Assembly: GCF_044324875.1 (NCBI RefSeq)
Contig: NZ_CP172185.1
DNA: 64,000 bases
DNA from: Escherichia coli
GTDB taxonomy: Bacteria > Pseudomonadota > Gammaproteobacteria > Enterobacterales > Enterobacteriaceae
Reading direction: 5' to 3' (one strand)
A program made the translations under genes and the position numbers. This document shows positions 24,764-31,241 of this stretch, piece by piece (within the stretch, counting starts at the first letter, position 1; every line of letters starts with the position of its first letter). Under the pieces are notes generated by a model that ran no database searches, was not told the DNA's origin, and saw only the letters and a list, made by a program, of their open reading frames with translations.

Positions 24764-24847
24764 ATGGACAAGCAACGCGGTTTTACACTTATCGAACTGA
24801 TGGTGGTCATTAACAGTAAATTACTGTACAAATACCGCATCTGTTAA
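24764..24847 (+). pseudogene. ppdD: ppdD 5' fragment: first 15 codons of the type IV prepilin (MDKQRGFTLIELMVV) fused to 12 island-derived codons, then stop
   Basis: ATG at 24764; the N-methyl-Phe prepilin leader GFTLIELM is intact up to codon 15; frame then runs into AT-rich island DNA (INSKLLYKYRIC*). Confidence 0.75.
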
Positions 24848-25181
24848 TTCATCTCTCTCCCACAATGCCACAATCCATAACATATTGATTTTAATACATA
24901 ATGATATCAAAAGGATTTGAACCATCTTAACCATCACTTCCCATTTTTAGACCCCCTTCTACTATATTTCTCGTCAGTAGAGATCTAATGGCATCTTTTC
25001 ACCTACGCACTAATAACGTATCCTTTGCTTTCGCCAAAATGGTGGTAATCATCTTTAGAACATAGTAAAAATACTGTTGATTTCTATATAGTTCTACCTC
25101 TCCTTTAGTTGTTATTAAGATGGCAGTTTCAAATCAGGAACACATAGGTATCATGTACTAACAGCTTTATAACTTAATCAG

Positions 25182-26468
25182 GTGCTAACCATGGACTCGA
25201 AATCTCTTGTTGAACTTTCCCATGATATACAATCCGGACTAGGAAACATTGACGTTCCAGATTTTGATAACATCAAAACTATCGGAATGGCATCAATACT
25301 AGCAATGCATATACGCGGATTGGGAGAAATTGATTATGAAGTTTTAAGGAAAGTCAGTGACTTCTTTTTCAACATACCTTCATATGCTTTAAAAAGCGTA
25401 TTGGAAGTACTGGCTGAGATAGAATATGTAGATTTAATAACGAAAGACAAAAAAATATTGTCAGTAATTCCAAACGTTCCTCGATTCAAAGATCTCTATC
25501 AAGGTGTTGGTGATTATTTCACATTTAGCGATCTCAACGAACATGAGCAAGGCACATTGATAATATTATCTAATCTTCAAAACAAACCCGAAAACAGAGA
25601 CAAACTAATTCATTCTACAGGCATCGACAATACTCTTTTTTCTCGTTGTTTAGAGATTGGTGAAAAAGGTAACTATTTTAGAAATTATAGAGCTAGAGGA
25701 AAAAACATCATAGCTAGCCCATTTTATTTTGCCGATAATTTAGAGTCACTTGTCGATATTTCAGCCAAAATTGGTTCGAATGATATTGATGCTGTTTTAA
25801 AAATTATAAAAGATAATCAGGGATGGCCTCTCTCACTGATCGAATCACAATTAGAAATCGGTGGAAAAAAGCTAACAAAAGTACAAAAAGAACTTTTAAT
25901 TGGTTTTTGCCAAGAGGGTGTACTCAAACCCCCTTCAATTGATTTCGGAAACCAAAAACAAGAAACATTCATATTCACACCGAGGCCCGGAAATATAAAA
26001 TTGAATGCAGCTAACAGAGAGATTTATGAACGAGCAATGGCGTTAGTTTCTTGCGTTAGGAAAGGACAATTACTGCACGACAAATATAGAATAAGGCTTC
26101 CAGTTAGGATATTGGAATCATTAAAAGAAAAAGGTTATCTTAATCAAAATTCAGAAGCTGCATCCCAGTATAGGAATCTGGTGTTTTTGAAGGTTGGAAT
26201 GCTAAAAGCTAAGGATCATAACAAGTGGGAATTTCATTTAATAAAAACAGAAGAAAACATTGAAGCATTAGATTTAGCAATAAGTCTCTTAAAAACAGGA
26301 GAACTTGCAAATTTAGAAGTTGATCAAAATGCAAAAATAGCATTAACACAAGATGAAAAATACATTCAATCGATCATTAGCTCCGCAGAACTTAGAACTA
26401 GAGAGAAGATAAAACAAAGCGAGGAAGCAAAAGAACAATTTGAACAACTGATTTTCGAAATGGAGTAA
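25182..26468 (+). CDS. uncharacterised protein, island cargo gene A (no recognisable motif)
   Basis: 428-aa ORF from GTG at 25182; more likely ATG at 25191 (MDSKSLVELSHD...) preceded by AGGTG; AT-rich codon usage; first gene of a coupled pair. Confidence 0.6.
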   Translation: MLTMDSKSLVELSHDIQSGLGNIDVPDFDNIKTIGMASILAMHIRGLGEIDYEVLRKVSDFFFNIPSYALKSVLEVLAEIEYVDLITKDKKILSVIPNVPRFKDLYQGVGDYFTFSDLNEHEQGTLIILSNLQNKPENRDKLIHSTGIDNTLFSRCLEIGEKGNYFRNYRARGKNIIASPFYFADNLESLVDISAKIGSNDIDAVLKIIKDNQGWPLSLIESQLEIGGKKLTKVQKELLIGFCQEGVLKPPSIDFGNQKQETFIFTPRPGNIKLNAANREIYERAMALVSCVRKGQLLHDKYRIRLPVRILESLKEKGYLNQNSEAASQYRNLVFLKVGMLKAKDHNKWEFHLIKTEENIEALDLAISLLKTGELANLEVDQNAKIALTQDEKYIQSIISSAELRTREKIKQSEEAKEQFEQLIFEME

Positions 26469-27571
26469 TGGTAATGGCTAACTTAGATAAAGACCTAGGT
26501 TTGAAGCAAGACGCTATAAGGTTTTGCTTGATAAATGGTTACTTGCCATTTTTAGAAGTTAACGTTGAAAACTATAGGGAACTTTCTGATACATCTACAA
26601 TTATAACAGATGTAGATGTTTTAGGGGTTGCTTTTGATATAACTGGAAAAACCAGAAAGATAATTTTCGATTGTAAAACCATTAAAAATACCAGCCCTAT
26701 TAATAGAGCGTTTTGGGCTTCCGGTGTTATGAATTTTTTAGGCTATGATGAAGCATTCATCATATTAAGAAAGAAAGCAAGTGAGGCCCATAGACTTTCC
26801 GCAAAAACAATTAATGTCCACCTTTTTGATGAAGATCAAATGAAAGGATATGCTCAATCATTTTCAATGAATTTCAATATTGATTTAAGCTACTCTACGG
26901 ACATTAATAATTGGATAAGTATACAGGAAGTATATAAAACAGATAAAACCATCCAAAAATATGGCGAATTTTTAGCAAGTTCGGTTCCTACAGAAAATGA
27001 TCCAGCGAAGAATTTGAGAAGATTTATTGCTGCTTTACAAAAAGTGAAGAATGAACTAGACCCTCAAAAAAATAAACACAGAGCAATTTACTTGCATAGT
27101 CTAATGACATTCTCATATATTATGGCATGCTTAGTGCAGCAACTAAGAGGGTTAATTGATTTTGATTATAATCAGAATGAATTCACAAGACTTCTCAAAT
27201 ATTATATCTGGGGAGGGAAGGATAGCTTTATATTAAGACATAAGATGAGAGAACTAATCTCATCTAATGACAGTTCGATTCAAAATATAGAGCCAGAGTT
27301 AAGGAATTGGGATGACTTTATTGAACTCACAAGGAGTCTACTTGACTCTCCTAATGATATAATTAAATGTTGCCATGTGTTACGTGAATTTAGTTTTTTA
27401 GAACTATCCATGCATGACATTAAAAAGGATGAGCAACTATCCACTCTAATTTCAGATAATTCAAGAATTCGTCAATTTATAATGATAATGGCTAGATACT
27501 TAACCAACTCGATGAAAATGCCAAAAGATTTCATTAACGATCTAGTATCAATATTTGATAGATTGAGATAA
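26468..27571 (+). CDS. uncharacterised protein, island cargo gene B, with N-terminal PD-(D/E)xK-like nuclease motif
   Basis: 367-aa ORF; ATG overlaps the stop of gene A (TAATG); alternative ATG at 26474 has better GGAG spacing; motif TDVDVLGV...(18 aa)...IIFDCK. Confidence 0.6.
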   Translation: MVMANLDKDLGLKQDAIRFCLINGYLPFLEVNVENYRELSDTSTIITDVDVLGVAFDITGKTRKIIFDCKTIKNTSPINRAFWASGVMNFLGYDEAFIILRKKASEAHRLSAKTINVHLFDEDQMKGYAQSFSMNFNIDLSYSTDINNWISIQEVYKTDKTIQKYGEFLASSVPTENDPAKNLRRFIAALQKVKNELDPQKNKHRAIYLHSLMTFSYIMACLVQQLRGLIDFDYNQNEFTRLLKYYIWGGKDSFILRHKMRELISSNDSSIQNIEPELRNWDDFIELTRSLLDSPNDIIKCCHVLREFSFLELSMHDIKKDEQLSTLISDNSRIRQFIMIMARYLTNSMKMPKDFINDLVSIFDRLR

Positions 27572-27577
27572 AAAGAA

Positions 27578-27609
27578 GAGCAGGCTCGAATTAAATTTCG
27601 TGCCTGCTC
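27578..27609 (+). terminator. Hairpin after cargo gene B
   Basis: gagcaggc-(16 nt)-gcctgctc inverted repeat 7 bp after the stop at 27571; no clear T-run. Confidence 0.35.
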
Positions 27610-27708
27610 ACCATATAAACAAATGATAATAACTCATTCAACTAGATTATCTTTAATTCAGAGCAGTAATGATTTTCTTAATAACAATTCCCCTTTCTGA
27701 ATCCCATC

Positions 27709-28266
27709 TCAGGAGGCATTCATTTCTTTTTTCACGCGAAACACTGTAGCCCTGCCACAATCGCACAACTTTGCAATCTCATCCGGTGTGTTCTTCCCAG
27801 CTTGAAGCATCTCAATGATTTTACTGTGTAATTCTTTGTTCTTTTGCTTTCCTTTATACTTCTTAGCCTCTTTAGCAAGGGCAATTCCTTCGTTGCGACG
27901 TGATGCGATCATTCCCCGCTCAAATTCTGCAACGGCTCCCATCATGGTTAAGATTAAACGAGATTGTGGGGAGTTATCGAAACTCATTGAGTTAGCAAGG
28001 AACTGAACAGTGATCCCGCGAGCAACGAGGCTATCAATCATTTCCAGCAAATCGCGGGTATTACGTGCAAGGCGATCAATCGAGTGAGTCATGAGCGTAT
28101 CACCTTCGCGGAGGTGTGAAAGCAGGTTCAACAATTCAGGTCTCTCGCTGGTGGACTTACCTGATTCTTTCTCGGTGACGATTTTGTCACAAACAGGTTC
28201 CAGTACTGCCAACTGACGCTCAAGATTCTGATCCTTTGTTGAGACTCTCGCGTAACCAAAAATCAT
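27709..28266 (-). CDS. small serine recombinase (resolvase/invertase family)
   Basis: ORF 27709..28296; likely start MIFGYARVSTKDQNLERQ (ATG at 28264-28266 on the minus strand, preceded by GAGGGCAGGGAA); catalytic Ser in the YARVST motif; C-terminal HTH. Confidence 0.8.
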   Translation of the reverse strand: MIFGYARVSTKDQNLERQLAVLEPVCDKIVTEKESGKSTSERPELLNLLSHLREGDTLMTHSIDRLARNTRDLLEMIDSLVARGITVQFLANSMSFDNSPQSRLILTMMGAVAEFERGMIASRRNEGIALAKEAKKYKGKQKNKELHSKIIEMLQAGKNTPDEIAKLCDCGRATVFRVKKEMNAS

Positions 28267-28285
28267 TTCCCTGCCCTCACCGCTG

Positions 28286-28356
28286 ATAAGTATCATTTAA
28301 ATTAACTGAATGATACAGTATCATTTAAATTCTTTCAATGTCTAAATGATACTAAA
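28286..28356. repeat. res-like recombination site: two adjacent palindromes built from four GTATCATT(T) half-sites
   Basis: GTATCATT(11 bp)AATGATAC at 28290-28316 and GTATCATTT(17 bp)AAATGATAC at 28318-28352, directly upstream of the resolvase start. Confidence 0.5.
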
Positions 28357-28814
28357 CGAGACAAGAAAAACGGGTATCGTTAGGGAGTACCCAAAAGAGA
28401 TTTTTGATCGTGCGTTTTTTAGTCAATGTAGGGTTAGTGAAAAGTTCAGTACCGAGATCTGAGTTCACGGCATTTTGTCGACGGGGTTGAACCTGATTAG
28501 GCGAACGAGATTTTAAATCAGGCGGAATAAAACAAGTTGTACTTTTATCTGAGTAAACGATCCCTTTAACTTTTTAGTCAGAAATCGTGATACTAGGGGT
28601 TTGGTTATTTTGTGTCCTTAAGGCCAGTACTTTTAGCGAGGACGAAAAAACGGCCTACATGAGAACGCTTACAGTAACTTAAGTATATTATCCAAAAAGT
28701 CACTTAACTTAAATCAATTTGGATGCAAAATCGCCACACTTTGCAAGTGAACACATACCGGGCAACAAGCAAATAAAAAAGGCCACTTTCGCGACCTTGT
28801 ACCAGTACAAACAC

Positions 28815-29174
28815 TCATTCAGAACGATCAAGTACCATATATGCTGGCTGACACATGCTGCCCCGCTCCTGTAGCCAGTAGTAATCAAGATCGGCAACAC
28901 GCACGTCCAATCCAGAATCTACACGGTTGATCTGTAACCGTAGCCCTACAGTATCCTTGTACGATAAACCAGATTTAACATTGTATTTGTACTTAACACC
29001 GTTTTCCTGTTCAAACTGTTTAAGGAAAGGCGTCATTTGTTTCTGAATTTCTTTCAAACAAATAACCTCATTATCAATAGCAAAGGGGGGTTCTGTTTTT
29101 CCATCAGGTACAGCAGCCTGTAAATGAAAGGAAGTACTCAACAATAACAGCATTGCAACAGAAGTCTTTTTCAT
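28815..29174 (-). CDS. small secreted or periplasmic protein of unknown function
   Basis: 119-aa ORF with signal peptide MKKTSVAMLLLLSTSFHLQA; 43 bp downstream of the membrane protein gene on the same strand. Confidence 0.5.
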   Translation of the reverse strand: MKKTSVAMLLLLSTSFHLQAAVPDGKTEPPFAIDNEVICLKEIQKQMTPFLKQFEQENGVKYKYNVKSGLSYKDTVGLRLQINRVDSGLDVRVADLDYYWLQERGSMCQPAYMVLDRSE

Positions 29175-29217
29175 TTTAATTCCTTATTAAAGAACAGTAC
29201 ATTATATTTCAATGGAC

Positions 29218-30258
29218 TTAATAACAATATTTTATATTTCCTTCGGGTTTTCTCATGCATTTAATTCCTTCAGGAATATAATCAGTTACGGGAGCAGGTC
29301 TGGCATCAGGTCTTGAAAGACGATTGGATATAGAAGACAACAGACTGAAAACACACTCATTAAATGATTTTTGATATTTATTTTTTTCATAAAAGTACTG
29401 CATGGTGATTTTATCTCTTTCGTATTGCAATTCTTTGCCAAGCTGAATCCTATCCATATCAATTCCATTTCTCATAGCATTAAATCTTTCGTTCAATAAA
29501 TTAAATTGAGATTTATTCCATTCATTTAAAGGAAATAAAGAATTGTTAAGCCTTTGCCTACAATTAGATTGCTCGATAGCTGACATGTATTCTTTCATAC
29601 TAACGCCAATATCTAAGTATGTGAGTTGTCCAGCAGTTCTATCAACTGAGTTATTAGGGTAAGATTTAATTTCAGTAAGTATTGACTCTGTTAATACTGC
29701 ATTTTCTTCTAAATCTTTGCTAATAGTTATTTGAGCTTGTTCTCTTTTATCCTTATCAAATATTGAAATGTATTTCTTTACTATATCCTGATTAGCTTTC
29801 TCGGCTGCTACTAACGCATCTTGAACCTTCTTTTCCGCCGCTTTAACTCGTTGTTCTTCTACAAATTTCGCGTAGTCATCAGTATTTGTAATGTGATTTT
29901 CACGAGCGATAGAAAACTCTTTACTATCTTTAAAACCAAGTTTTTGTGCTCTGGCTCCATCGCTTGAAGATCGGGCAGAACTTGCCACGAAAGCGAGCAC
30001 AATGATCAGTACAGGAACCGTATAATTATTAACGAGTTTATAGGGTAAGAACTTCGCTTTAAGCGTACCATAACCCAAAACAGCCCAGCCTATCGCGGCA
30101 GTACTTGCCAGTAGCTGGCACAATCCAGCGACGGAAAGCATGATTACCGACCAGAAGCCTGTACCGACTGCGAAAAGATCACCAAATTTCTCCATTGACG
30201 CAAGGAATAAAAACACTCCCCAAATGCCATAAAATCCTATTTTCAAATATTTACTCAC
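29218..30258 (-). CDS. membrane protein of unknown function (three N-terminal TM helices, coiled-coil soluble domain)
   Basis: 346-aa ORF; hydrophobic segments at about residues 7-22, 36-64 and 81-95; Lys/Glu-rich predicted coiled coil; AT-rich. Confidence 0.55.
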   Translation of the reverse strand: MSKYLKIGFYGIWGVFLFLASMEKFGDLFAVGTGFWSVIMLSVAGLCQLLASTAAIGWAVLGYGTLKAKFLPYKLVNNYTVPVLIIVLAFVASSARSSSDGARAQKLGFKDSKEFSIARENHITNTDDYAKFVEEQRVKAAEKKVQDALVAAEKANQDIVKKYISIFDKDKREQAQITISKDLEENAVLTESILTEIKSYPNNSVDRTAGQLTYLDIGVSMKEYMSAIEQSNCRQRLNNSLFPLNEWNKSQFNLLNERFNAMRNGIDMDRIQLGKELQYERDKITMQYFYEKNKYQKSFNECVFSLLSSISNRLSRPDARPAPVTDYIPEGIKCMRKPEGNIKYCY

Positions 30259-30493
30259 CGCAATTATCCTTTAATAATTTTCCAAATCGATGGTTCGTTC
30301 TATTTGTATTATCGACAATAATTCGTTTGCCTTTAGGTAGATCCCTTAAAAAGGAATCCCCCCAAAATTTATAGATTAGCAGTTGTACCACTCTCACTGT
30401 TTTGTCACTCCCATTATCTTCTCTCAGGTCAAAAGTACGGACTTAAAGCCGTCCGTGTTCAGGTGCTCAAGAGTAGCACGCATATCAATAAAT

Positions 30494-30584
30494 GATCGAT
30501 AAAAACGATCAATTAATGGATTATTGATTGCTATAATCGATCAATTACTATTAATTCAATACAAATCAATAGGTAAAATCGATC
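30494..30584. repeat. Cluster of four GATC-centred (A)TCGATCAA(T/G) motifs in an ORF-free island segment
   Basis: GATC at 30494, 30507, 30539 and 30581 within 90 bp of AT-rich DNA, each in a similar CGATCAA context. Confidence 0.4.
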
Positions 30585-31241
30585 AAGAGGATTCGTCATC
30601 CATGAAAGGGGTTATGTATCTGATTTCAATACAGGGAGTATTAGCGATACCATCACGCAAACGCTCTTAAAGCGTAGCTACGGCGTTTTGTAGGGTTTTG
30701 GTCATTCATGTGTGTCAGTAATGAACATCGCATTCAGGGGCTTCCTGTGCGTTTTGTCCGAAACACCATCATGAAGGGGGACAGATCGGATCGGGGTCGC
30801 TTCGCTCTGGTCAGTACTGGATAGTTCTTTTCCAGTAACTGAAACCGCAGATCCCCCACTAAGTACACAAAGGAATCAGTAGTATAATAAGTAATTAAAT
30901 AGCAATCAGTTATGTACTGAATGACAGAACAGAAAAACGCGATTGGTTCGCTCTGCCAGTGACTGAAAGGAACGAAGCAGTAGAACCTAATCCAGCGAAC
31001 AGTACACGCAAAGCGGGTACTGTTTAATTGTTTTATCTATGTAAACAATGGGATAGCTATCAAGTACTCACTGCGTGAGCACTCTCACTAACTACCCGAA
31101 ACAGTTCGCTTGCTTCGCCGCTCCTACTTTCAGGTAGTTAATTCGCTTTCGCTCGTTGTGATGTCCGAAATTTATTACCTATAGTATTATAAGGTATTAT
31201 TTTCCGGACATTTATGTATTTTTATGATGGTGTTCTGGACA

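What the first reader, a model, noticed from the sequence alone, without database searches (positions are those of the whole stretch)
26609..26680. PD-(D/E)xK-like catalytic motif in cargo gene B
Residues 48-70 of gene B read TDVDVLGVAFDITGKTRKIIFDCK: an acidic residue at the end of a hydrophobic beta-strand-like segment (DVDVLGV) followed 18 residues later by hhhFDCK, the classic D...(D/E)xK arrangement of restriction-endonuclease-fold nucleases, with upstream glutamates (E30, E34) that could supply the first acidic residue. The remaining roughly 290 aa look helical and unrelated.
Basis: inference. Interest (0 to 1): 0.7.

Follow-up and report, generated by a model that had tools for sequence, protein, structure and literature searches.

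The report
Candidate defence nuclease with winged-helix partner
The flagged motif is the conserved active site of a restriction-enzyme-type nuclease domain in an unnamed protein that always travels with a four-winged-helix partner on mobile islands, most likely an untested two-gene anti-phage system.

Summary
Gene B (26474-27571, +) carries T47-D48-x-D50 ... D68-C69-K70, numbered from the ATG at 26468. The bare pattern is common by chance. But in 44 homologues, down to about 20% identity, T47, D48, D50 and C69 are invariant, D68 is D or E in all 44, K70 is kept in 40 and E30 in 41.

No Pfam, NCBIfam, PADLOC, PHROG or PDB sequence model matches, so this is an unnamed family.

B is always preceded by gene A (about 425 aa, modelled as four tandem winged-helix domains, no enzymatic domain). 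The pair sits on varied mobile elements, in seven contexts within about 10 kb of known defence genes. A published classifier (DefensePredictor, Table S10) lists this exact protein as an uncharacterized predicted defence gene with a remote Mrr hit.

Best reading: the nuclease effector of an unvalidated two-gene, methyltransferase-less defence module. The fold and the pairing are shown computationally. The defence role and the mechanism are inferred.

The parts
25191..26468 (+). Gene A: about 425-aa partner protein, four tandem winged-helix domains plus a C-terminal helical tail. No enzymatic domain found.
26474..27571 (+). Gene B: 365-aa protein (367 aa if counted from the ATG at 26468, whose first base is the last base of gene A's TAA stop). 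N-terminal PD-(D/E)xK nuclease domain plus C-terminal helical domain.
   Evidence: At least 290 homologous 50%-identity clusters, none with a Pfam domain or an informative source name. AF2 model.
26489..26863 (+). Nuclease domain, residues about 8-132 (ORF numbering), with an alpha-beta-beta-beta-alpha-beta-alpha-beta core.
26492..26506 (+). Helix-1 residues D9 and K13, invariant in the family. Candidate extra active-site or DNA-contact residues.
   Evidence: D9 in 43 of 43 and K13 in 44 of 44. Their role is inferred only.
26555..26557 (+). E30 codon, on strand 1. Candidate first acidic residue.
   Evidence: E in 41 of 44 homologues. Lies in E26-34 of the model.
26606..26626 (+). Strand-2 motif T47-D48-V-D50-V-L-G53, the 'PD' equivalent.
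   Evidence: T47, D48 and D50 invariant in 44 of 44. Lies in strand E45-56.
26666..26680 (+). Strand-3 motif F67-D68-C69-K70-T71, the '(D/E)xK' equivalent.
   Evidence: D68 in 43 of 44 plus one E, C69 in 44 of 44, K70 in 40 of 44, T or S at position 71 in 41 of 44. Lies at the end of strand E62-69.
26864..27568 (+). C-terminal all-helical domain, about 235 aa. The fastest-evolving part of the pair. No structural counterpart stands out in PDB.
27578..27609 (.). GC-rich hairpin between convergent gene B and the invertase gene. Marks the end of the A-B operon.
   Evidence: Free energy -21.9 kcal/mol, z -6.7. On the minus strand it is followed by UUCUUUUU.
24812..34396 (.). About 9.6-kb low-GC island that carries A-B as cargo. 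It is inserted in ppdD and ends in a large serine recombinase gene (32793-34355, minus strand).
   Evidence: GC 30-42% against about 52% in the flanks. ppdD is split in the RefSeq annotation. 12-nt imperfect direct repeat at the junctions. Present in 6 of 5426 complete E. coli genomes.

Best explanation
Gene B encodes the nuclease subunit of a conserved, so far unnamed two-gene module that travels as cargo on mobile elements. The module most likely acts as an anti-phage or anti-plasmid defence system.

Shown computationally:
- Residues about 8-132 form a restriction-endonuclease (PD-(D/E)xK) fold, closest in shape to the Mrr, NucS and Can2/Card1 nuclease domains.
- The family's invariant residues are E30 on strand 1, D48 and D50 on strand 2, and D68-C69-K70 on strand 3. 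From the hairpin register, D50 faces D68 and D48 faces K70 on one face of the sheet, as expected for a metal-binding nuclease site. The register is my inference from the secondary-structure string, because I could not read the coordinates.
- B is translationally coupled to, and always found with, gene A, a protein modelled as four tandem winged-helix domains with no catalytic domain.

Inferred:
- A and B form a complex.
- A supplies nucleic-acid recognition, as the winged-helix domain does in Mrr and in DpnI-like type IV enzymes. Here it is a separate polypeptide.
- B cuts the invader's DNA, or the cell's own DNA in an abortive-infection mode.
- The fast-evolving helical C-terminal domain of B either controls the nuclease or is the surface that phages try to evade.
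- No methyltransferase belongs to the module, so self-protection must come from target specificity (a modified or otherwise non-self substrate) or from keeping the nuclease switched off until infection.
For: Fold and site:
- AF2 model with pLDDT 87.9 and the canonical topology.
- Foldseek finds full-length AFDB homologues, a few auto-named 'Cap4-like DNA endonuclease domain' or 'type IV Mrr domain' proteins.
- Weak single-member Pfam hits are only to restriction-endonuclease-fold families: Card1_endonuc at 3.6e-3 and NA-iREase1 at 0.036.
- Published HHblits hit to Mrr, probability 96.8.
- Motif residues are invariant down to about 20% identity.

Module:
- An A homologue lies directly upstream of B in Pseudomonas, Rhodoferax, Nodosilinea, Burkholderia, Vibrio, Aeromonas, Duganella, Marinobacter, Alteromonas and metagenomic contigs. 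This holds even where B is 20-22% identical, with A at 31% identity or hhalign probability 98.6%.

Defence role:
- The pair is cargo of at least five kinds of mobile element: serine-recombinase islands, tyrosine-integrase islands, a P4-like element, an ICE and plasmids.
- In seven contexts it lies within about 10 kb of known defence genes: type I RM plus Mrr, DUF262/DUF3696, AAA_21 plus RloB, AAA_15/DUF3696, GmrSD_C and KAP NTPase, BrxR/BrxB, and pAgo with SNF2 and ResIII.
- It is sporadic: 6 of 5426 E. coli genomes.
- DefensePredictor gives this exact protein a mean log-odds of 8.80, against a strict cut-off of 4.
Against: - No experiment exists. In the DefensePredictor study only 45% of cloned predictions protected against the phages tested, and this protein is not among the validated systems in the supplement text I could read.
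- K70 is replaced in 4 of 44 homologues.
- I could not superpose coordinates, so which of D48 and D50 is the metal ligand is not settled, and neither is whether E30 or D9 completes the site.
- No Pfam or PDB sequence model matches even at E = 10, so family placement rests on predicted structure.
- Several contexts show no recognisable defence neighbour.
- The A-B complex and A's DNA binding are guesses from domain type alone. Winged-helix domains also mediate protein-protein contacts, as in Vps25 and cullins.
- Gene A does not appear in the held, truncated part of Table S10.
Confidence: 0.6

Rival explanations
1. Addiction or toxin-antitoxin module. B is a toxic nuclease and A is a large winged-helix antitoxin and autorepressor that neutralises it. 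The pair stabilises the mobile element that carries it. This overlaps with abortive-infection defence and does not exclude it.
For: Antitoxin-first gene order with stop-start coupling. The pair is always on mobile elements or plasmids. Winged-helix proteins often act as antitoxins and repressors (general knowledge, for example AbiEi). The copy on Bacillus cereus pFORC13 has a truncated B and no A, which is what one expects when a toxin decays.
Against: At about 425 aa with four domains, and as conserved as the nuclease domain (58-65% against 62%), A is unlike typical small labile antitoxins. No hit to any toxin-antitoxin family in PADLOC or NCBIfam. The only PADLOC hit, to the CmdTAC chaperone, is spurious.
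Confidence: 0.2
2. Element housekeeping. The pair helps the island itself, for example as a recombination directionality factor (like XisH/XisI with the serine recombinase XisF), a junction resolvase, or a replication or partition factor.
Against: The pair keeps its form while the recombinase changes (serine, tyrosine or P4-type integrase) or no recombinase lies within the flanks examined, for example between rpoC and an ATPase gene in Duganella. A factor tied to one recombinase family should co-vary with it. XisH and XisI are much smaller single-domain proteins (about 110-130 aa, from my own knowledge).
Confidence: 0.07
3. The restriction-endonuclease fold is real but not catalytic. The domain serves only to bind DNA or a partner, as in inactive restriction-endonuclease domains fused to NTPases.
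For: One family member weakly hits the Pfam family of NACHT-associated inactive restriction endonucleases (E 0.036). K70 is lost in 4 of 44 homologues.
Against: The full acidic and lysine set is invariant or nearly so over very large distances. That is the signature of a site under selection for chemistry. Inactive derivatives typically lose these residues.
Confidence: 0.08
4. The motif is a chance match in a protein of some other fold.
For: The loose pattern occurs in 34 of 120 random reading-frame stretches of the same window. No sequence-profile library recognises the protein.
Confidence: 0.01

Closest known systems
Mrr and type IV restriction endonucleases (Pfam Mrr_cat, PF04471; structural neighbours AF1548/1y88, AspBHI, MspJI)
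   Different: The Pfam Mrr_cat model does not match the query or any of 35 family members. The nuclease is N-terminal and followed by a 235-aa helical domain not found in Mrr. The winged-helix part is a separate four-domain protein, not a fused N-terminal domain. Modification dependence is untested. The comparison of motif wording with the Mrr_cat consensus is from my memory of the family, not a test.
Can2, Card1 and VC1899 nuclease domain (Pfam Card1_endonuc, PF09002), CRISPR type III ancillary nucleases
   Different: There is no CARF sensor domain and no cyclic-oligoadenylate signalling genes nearby. The nuclease is C-terminal in Can2 and Card1 and N-terminal here.
Winged-helix-fusion type IV endonucleases (DpnI, HhiV4I; PMC11037411)
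   Same: The concept is the same: winged-helix domains read the DNA and a nuclease cuts it, without a methyltransferase (abstract seen).
   Different: Those enzymes are single polypeptides that sense 6mA in the ApT context. The hosts of this pair include E. coli, Vibrio, Aeromonas and Shewanella, which are Dam-methylated (established knowledge), so a G6mATC-dependent enzyme would attack its own chromosome. Any modification read here must be a different one.
Shedu (SduA) and Hachiman (HamA), defence nucleases of the same fold
   Different: No match to their PADLOC or Pfam models. The partner here is a winged-helix array, not a helicase (HamB). Domain order and accessory domains differ.

Membership tests
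PD-(D/E)xK (restriction-endonuclease-like) fold superfamily | alpha-beta-beta-beta-alpha-beta core with a mixed four-stranded sheet | tested here: met
   AF2 model with pLDDT 87.9: H10-22, E26-34, E45-56, E62-69, H77-91, E95-100. This is a predicted structure, not a solved one.
PD-(D/E)xK (restriction-endonuclease-like) fold superfamily | Acidic residue on strand 2 and (D/E)-x-K on strand 3, conserved in the family | tested here: met
   D48 and D50 in 44 of 44, D68 in 43 of 44 plus one E, K70 in 40 of 44. Strand assignment.
PD-(D/E)xK (restriction-endonuclease-like) fold superfamily | Significant structural similarity to solved members | tested here: met
PD-(D/E)xK (restriction-endonuclease-like) fold superfamily | Metal-dependent phosphodiester cleavage | not testable with these tools
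   Needs purified protein.
Mrr_cat (PF04471) family and type IV restriction enzymes | Match to the family's sequence profile | tested here: not met
   hmmscan against Pfam-A gives no hit for the query even at E = 10 and none in 35 members. hhalign against one Mrr_cat protein from L007 gives probability 0.2% (a single-sequence template, so a weak test). Externally, HHblits gives probability 96.8 over 35% of the query. That indicates a remote relationship, not membership.
Mrr_cat (PF04471) family and type IV restriction enzymes | Cleaves only modified DNA, with no cognate methyltransferase | tested here: inconclusive
   No methyltransferase gene belongs to the conserved pair in any of about 15 contexts. 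Modification dependence cannot be tested here.
Can2/Card1 (Card1_endonuc, PF09002) | CARF sensor domain fused to the nuclease, and a profile match | tested here: not met
   No CARF domain: the rest of B is all-helical. Pfam hit in 1 of 35 members, at E 3.6e-3 only.
Any defence system in PADLOC-DB v2.0.0 | Profile match of A or B to a system component | tested here: not met
   A has no hit. B has only PD-T4-9_C at E 0.009 in the helical domain, and that model is the SecB-like chaperone of CmdTAC, so the hit is spurious. Ten distant B homologues give one hit at E 0.005 to PDC-S02 and nothing else.
Toxin-antitoxin system | Toxicity of one product, neutralised by the other | not testable with these tools
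   Only the gene order and stop-start coupling are compatible.
XisH/XisI-type recombination directionality factors | Constant association with a large serine recombinase | tested here: not met
   The pair occurs with tyrosine integrases, and in two contexts no recombinase lies within the flanks examined.

The most novel reading that the evidence does not exclude
A-B is a genuine, mechanistically new two-component immune system. It licenses a separate Mrr-like nuclease whose fast-evolving helical domain sets specificity or is the target of phage inhibitors. This would be a 'split' type IV-like restriction or abortive-infection system, spread across Proteobacteria, Cyanobacteria, Firmicutes, Actinobacteria and other phyla, and absent from current defence catalogues.
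Probability: 0.45. Interest if true: 0.6.

Novelty: new variant of a known kind. Interest (0 to 1): 0.5.

Why it matters
The finding turns two 'hypothetical proteins' into a testable hypothesis: a compact two-gene nuclease system with defined point mutants (D48A, D50A, D68A, K70A) and a partner of unusual architecture.

If validated, it adds a defence family that Pfam, NCBIfam, PADLOC and PHROGs all miss. It would also show how a winged-helix array can be coupled in trans to a restriction-type nuclease.

The gain is bounded. PD-(D/E)xK nucleases are the commonest effector domain in bacterial immunity. Thousands of similar unvalidated predictions exist. This very protein is already listed as a predicted defence gene in the DefensePredictor supplement. 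So the domain call is correct and useful but not surprising to a specialist.

Tried and rejected
- Sequence-profile routes gave nothing. I tried Pfam on B, on A and on 35 N-terminal domains, NCBIfam, PADLOC, PHROGs, and PDB by phmmer or hmmsearch with the single sequence and three profiles.
- A profile search with the N-terminal domain alone returned only fragments of the same family and no link to a named family.
- hhalign of the domain profile against one Mrr_cat protein was uninformative.
- The weak PADLOC hit to PD-T4-9_C was rejected, because that component is a SecB-like chaperone.
- The two genes downstream of B in Pseudomonas and in an ICE (267/248 aa and 273/246 aa) looked like a possible shared extension of the module. 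They are unrelated to each other and match nothing.
- No homologue of B in 50,697 phage records. Only two IMG/VR contigs carry it, both integrative elements with the pair next to a tyrosine integrase.
- The inverted-repeat scan of the island found only AT-rich chance matches, so there is no sign of an invertible segment for the small invertase.
- The promoter scan found fewer sigma-70-like sites than shuffled sequence, and none upstream of gene A.
- I did not run the expensive genome or metagenome scans. About 15 independent contexts already answered the pairing question, and I had no way to annotate hundreds of neighbours.
- I could not read model coordinates, so no residue-level superposition on Can2, NucS or AF1548 was done.

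Full report
**Setting**

The window is E. coli chromosome (aroP-ampE-ampD-nadC ... ppdD-gspE-hofC). Between about 24812 and 34396 lies a 9.6-kb island with 30-42% GC, against about 52% in the flanks. The island interrupts ppdD. RefSeq annotates an 84-nt 5' fragment on the left and the rest of ppdD on the right. The two junctions carry ATGGTGGTCATT and ATGGTGGTTATT.

The island encodes:
- gene A (25191-26468, +)
- gene B (26474-27571, +)
- a small serine invertase
- two hypothetical proteins
- a P-loop protein annotated as 'type III restriction subunit R'
- a large serine recombinase at the right end

The A-B segment (window 25000-27700) is found in 6 of 5426 complete E. coli genomes, always on the chromosome.

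**The observation**

The quoted peptide is there. The coordinates given correspond to D48-T71, whereas the quoted string is residues 47-70. The true start codon is probably the ATG at 26474. GGAG lies 8 nt upstream of it, RefSeq and the homologues start there, and that shifts the numbering by -2.

The bare D...(D/E)xK pattern is not significant on its own. It occurs in 34 of 120 stop-free stretches of at least 100 aa in the six-frame translation of this window.

**Conservation**

B belongs to a family of proteins of about 365 aa. There are 213 clusters at 90% identity in the word-indexed search and 290 clusters at 50% identity in the exhaustive search. None has a Pfam domain or an informative name.

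In 28 homologues at 38-84% identity, E30, T47, D48, D50, G53, F67, D68, C69, K70 and T71 are invariant.

In 44 homologues reaching about 20% identity:
- T47, D48, D50, C69 and K13 are still invariant
- D9 is present in 43 of 43
- D68 is D in 43 and E in one
- K70 is kept in 40
- E30 is kept in 41

**Fold**

An AlphaFold2 model built on the 28-sequence alignment is confident (pLDDT 87.9, pTM 0.87). It gives helix 10-22, strands 26-34, 45-56 and 62-69, helix 77-91, strand 95-100, helix 106-114, strand 117-121, then helices only. This is the alpha-beta-beta-beta-alpha-beta restriction-endonuclease core. The invariant aspartates sit on strand 2 and D-C-K at the end of strand 3.

From the hairpin register, D50 should pair with D68 and D48 with K70 on one face of the sheet.

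Foldseek against AFDB50 finds full-length homologues (TM 0.7-0.96). A few are automatically named 'Cap4-like DNA endonuclease domain' or 'type IV Mrr domain' proteins.

Sequence profiles fail. There is no Pfam, NCBIfam, PADLOC, PHROG or PDB hit. The only exceptions are single-member hits to Card1_endonuc (3.6e-3) and NA-iREase1 (0.036), both restriction-endonuclease-fold families.

Independently, the DefensePredictor study (PMC13092281, Table S10) records an HHblits hit for this exact protein, WP_129560323.1. The hit is to an Mrr type IV restriction-endonuclease cluster, with probability 96.8 over 35% of the query, which is the size of the N-terminal domain.

**The partner and the module**

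An A homologue lies immediately upstream of B in every context where upstream DNA is available:
- Pseudomonas
- Rhodoferax
- Nodosilinea
- a Burkholderia glumae plasmid, with A at 47% identity
- Vibrio
- Aeromonas
- Duganella
- Marinobacter
- Alteromonas
- an ICE
- two IMG/VR integrative elements
- metagenomic contigs where B is only 20-22% identical, with A at 31% identity or hhalign probability 98.6%

Consecutive locus tags in the two homologue lists give further pairs.

A and the nuclease domain of B are about equally conserved (58-65% and 62% in the close sets). The helical domain of B evolves much faster (39%).

**Context and likely role**

The pair is cargo on several kinds of mobile element:
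- serine-recombinase islands, in E. coli in ppdD and in Vibrio in a comM-like gene
- tyrosine-integrase islands
- a P4-like element
- an ICE
- plasmids

In seven contexts, known defence genes lie within about 10 kb:
- type I RM, Mrr and YhcG
- DUF262/DUF3696
- AAA_21 plus RloB
- AAA_15/DUF3696
- GmrSD_C, KAP NTPase and an SMC-like ATPase
- BrxR/BrxB
- pAgo with SNF2 and ResIII

No methyltransferase is part of the module, and no phage genome carries it.

DefensePredictor scores the protein at a mean log-odds of 8.80, against a strict threshold of 4. It files the protein among 1,041 uncharacterized predicted defence clusters of the E. coli pangenome. That study's overall validation rate was 45%, and this system was not among those tested as far as the held supplements show.

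**Mechanism**

The best-supported reading is a two-subunit nuclease system without a methyltransferase. A binds nucleic acid through its winged-helix array, and B cleaves with an E30/D48/D50/D68/K70 site. This is analogous to Mrr or DpnI-type enzymes, but with reader and cutter on separate polypeptides. The variable helical domain of B would act as regulator or specificity element.

A G6mATC reader is unlikely, because the gammaproteobacterial hosts are Dam-methylated (established knowledge).

Steps shown by computation only: fold, conserved site, obligate pairing, mobile and defence-rich contexts.

Steps inferred: catalysis, complex formation, substrate, defence.

Rivals, with my estimates:
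- toxin-antitoxin or addiction module (0.2), which is compatible with abortive infection
- island housekeeping such as an XisH/XisI-like directionality factor (0.07), contradicted by the changing or absent recombinases
- a non-catalytic restriction-endonuclease fold (0.08), contradicted by the invariant acidic and lysine set
- chance motif (0.01)

**Comparison and novelty**

At fold level this is an ordinary member of the PD-(D/E)xK superfamily. It is nearest in shape to the Mrr/AF1548, NucS and Can2/Card1 nuclease domains. It fails the sequence-profile membership test for every named family tried.

The architecture is an N-terminal nuclease plus a novel helical domain, with a separate four-winged-helix partner. 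It matches no system in PADLOC v2. I rate it a new variant of a known kind.

Interest is moderate (0.5). But nuclease-based candidate defence genes are abundant, and this one has already been flagged, though not tested, in the literature.

Noticed in passing
window 24764-24847 and 34397-34801 (junction repeats at 24800-24811 and 34397-34408): The island is inserted inside ppdD. The first 16 codons (MDKQRGFTLIELMVVI) are separated from the rest of the gene by 9.6 kb. A 12-nt imperfect direct repeat, ATGGTGGTCATT and ATGGTGGTTATT, sits at the two junctions. The remaining ppdD ORF starts at an internal ATG and lacks the prepilin leader, so the pilin is probably inactivated.
   Followed up: partly
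L012/L013 6621-17460 (Vibrio): The same A-B pair sits in an island that splits a comM-like Mg-chelatase gene and also ends in a large serine recombinase. That island also carries a PIN_12 protein, a Phage_GPA replication protein and a Mob_Pre relaxase. So there is a family of small mobilisable islands built like the E. coli one but with different target genes.
   Followed up: no
window 27578-27609: A strong hairpin (-21.9 kcal/mol, z -6.7) lies 7 nt after the stop codon of gene B. On the minus strand it is followed by UUCUUUUU, so it looks like the intrinsic terminator of the convergent invertase gene (27709-28296, minus strand). It may also end the A-B transcript. The consensus terminator scan missed it.
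   Followed up: partly
window 27709-28296 (minus strand): A small serine recombinase of the DNA-invertase type (PHROG 125, E 7e-59) lies next to the module. No flanking inverted repeats that would define an invertible segment were found in the island.
   Followed up: partly
window 31242-32717 (minus strand): The 490-aa protein that RefSeq annotates as 'type III restriction endonuclease subunit R' matches ResIII only over the P-loop (residues 25-73, E 1.6e-4). It belongs to PHROG 2467, of unknown function. The annotation looks over-specific, and its role in the island (replication, mobilisation or defence) is open.
   Followed up: partly
window 28815-29174 and 29218-30258 (minus strand): Two further island genes (119 aa with a signal-peptide-like N-terminus, and 346 aa with N-terminal hydrophobic segments) have no hit in PADLOC or PHROGs.
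   Followed up: no
L027 1959-7086: A distant B homologue (about 22% identity) lies beside a prokaryotic Argonaute (Piwi domain, 823 aa) and SNF2 and ResIII helicases. Its gene A is split into 207-aa and 153-aa ORFs, from either a frameshift or an assembly error.
   Followed up: partly
L008 6073-6822 (Bacillus cereus plasmid pFORC13): The B homologue here is only a 249-aa ORF, although tblastn similarity spans 96% of the query. No gene A is present. This is probably a decaying copy.
   Followed up: no
DefensePredictor Table S10 (PMC13092281): A second E. coli protein, WP_250204633.1 (416 aa, log-odds 14.4), has the same remote Mrr hit over a similar fraction of its length. It may be a paralogous family with the same N-terminal-nuclease architecture.
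   Followed up: no
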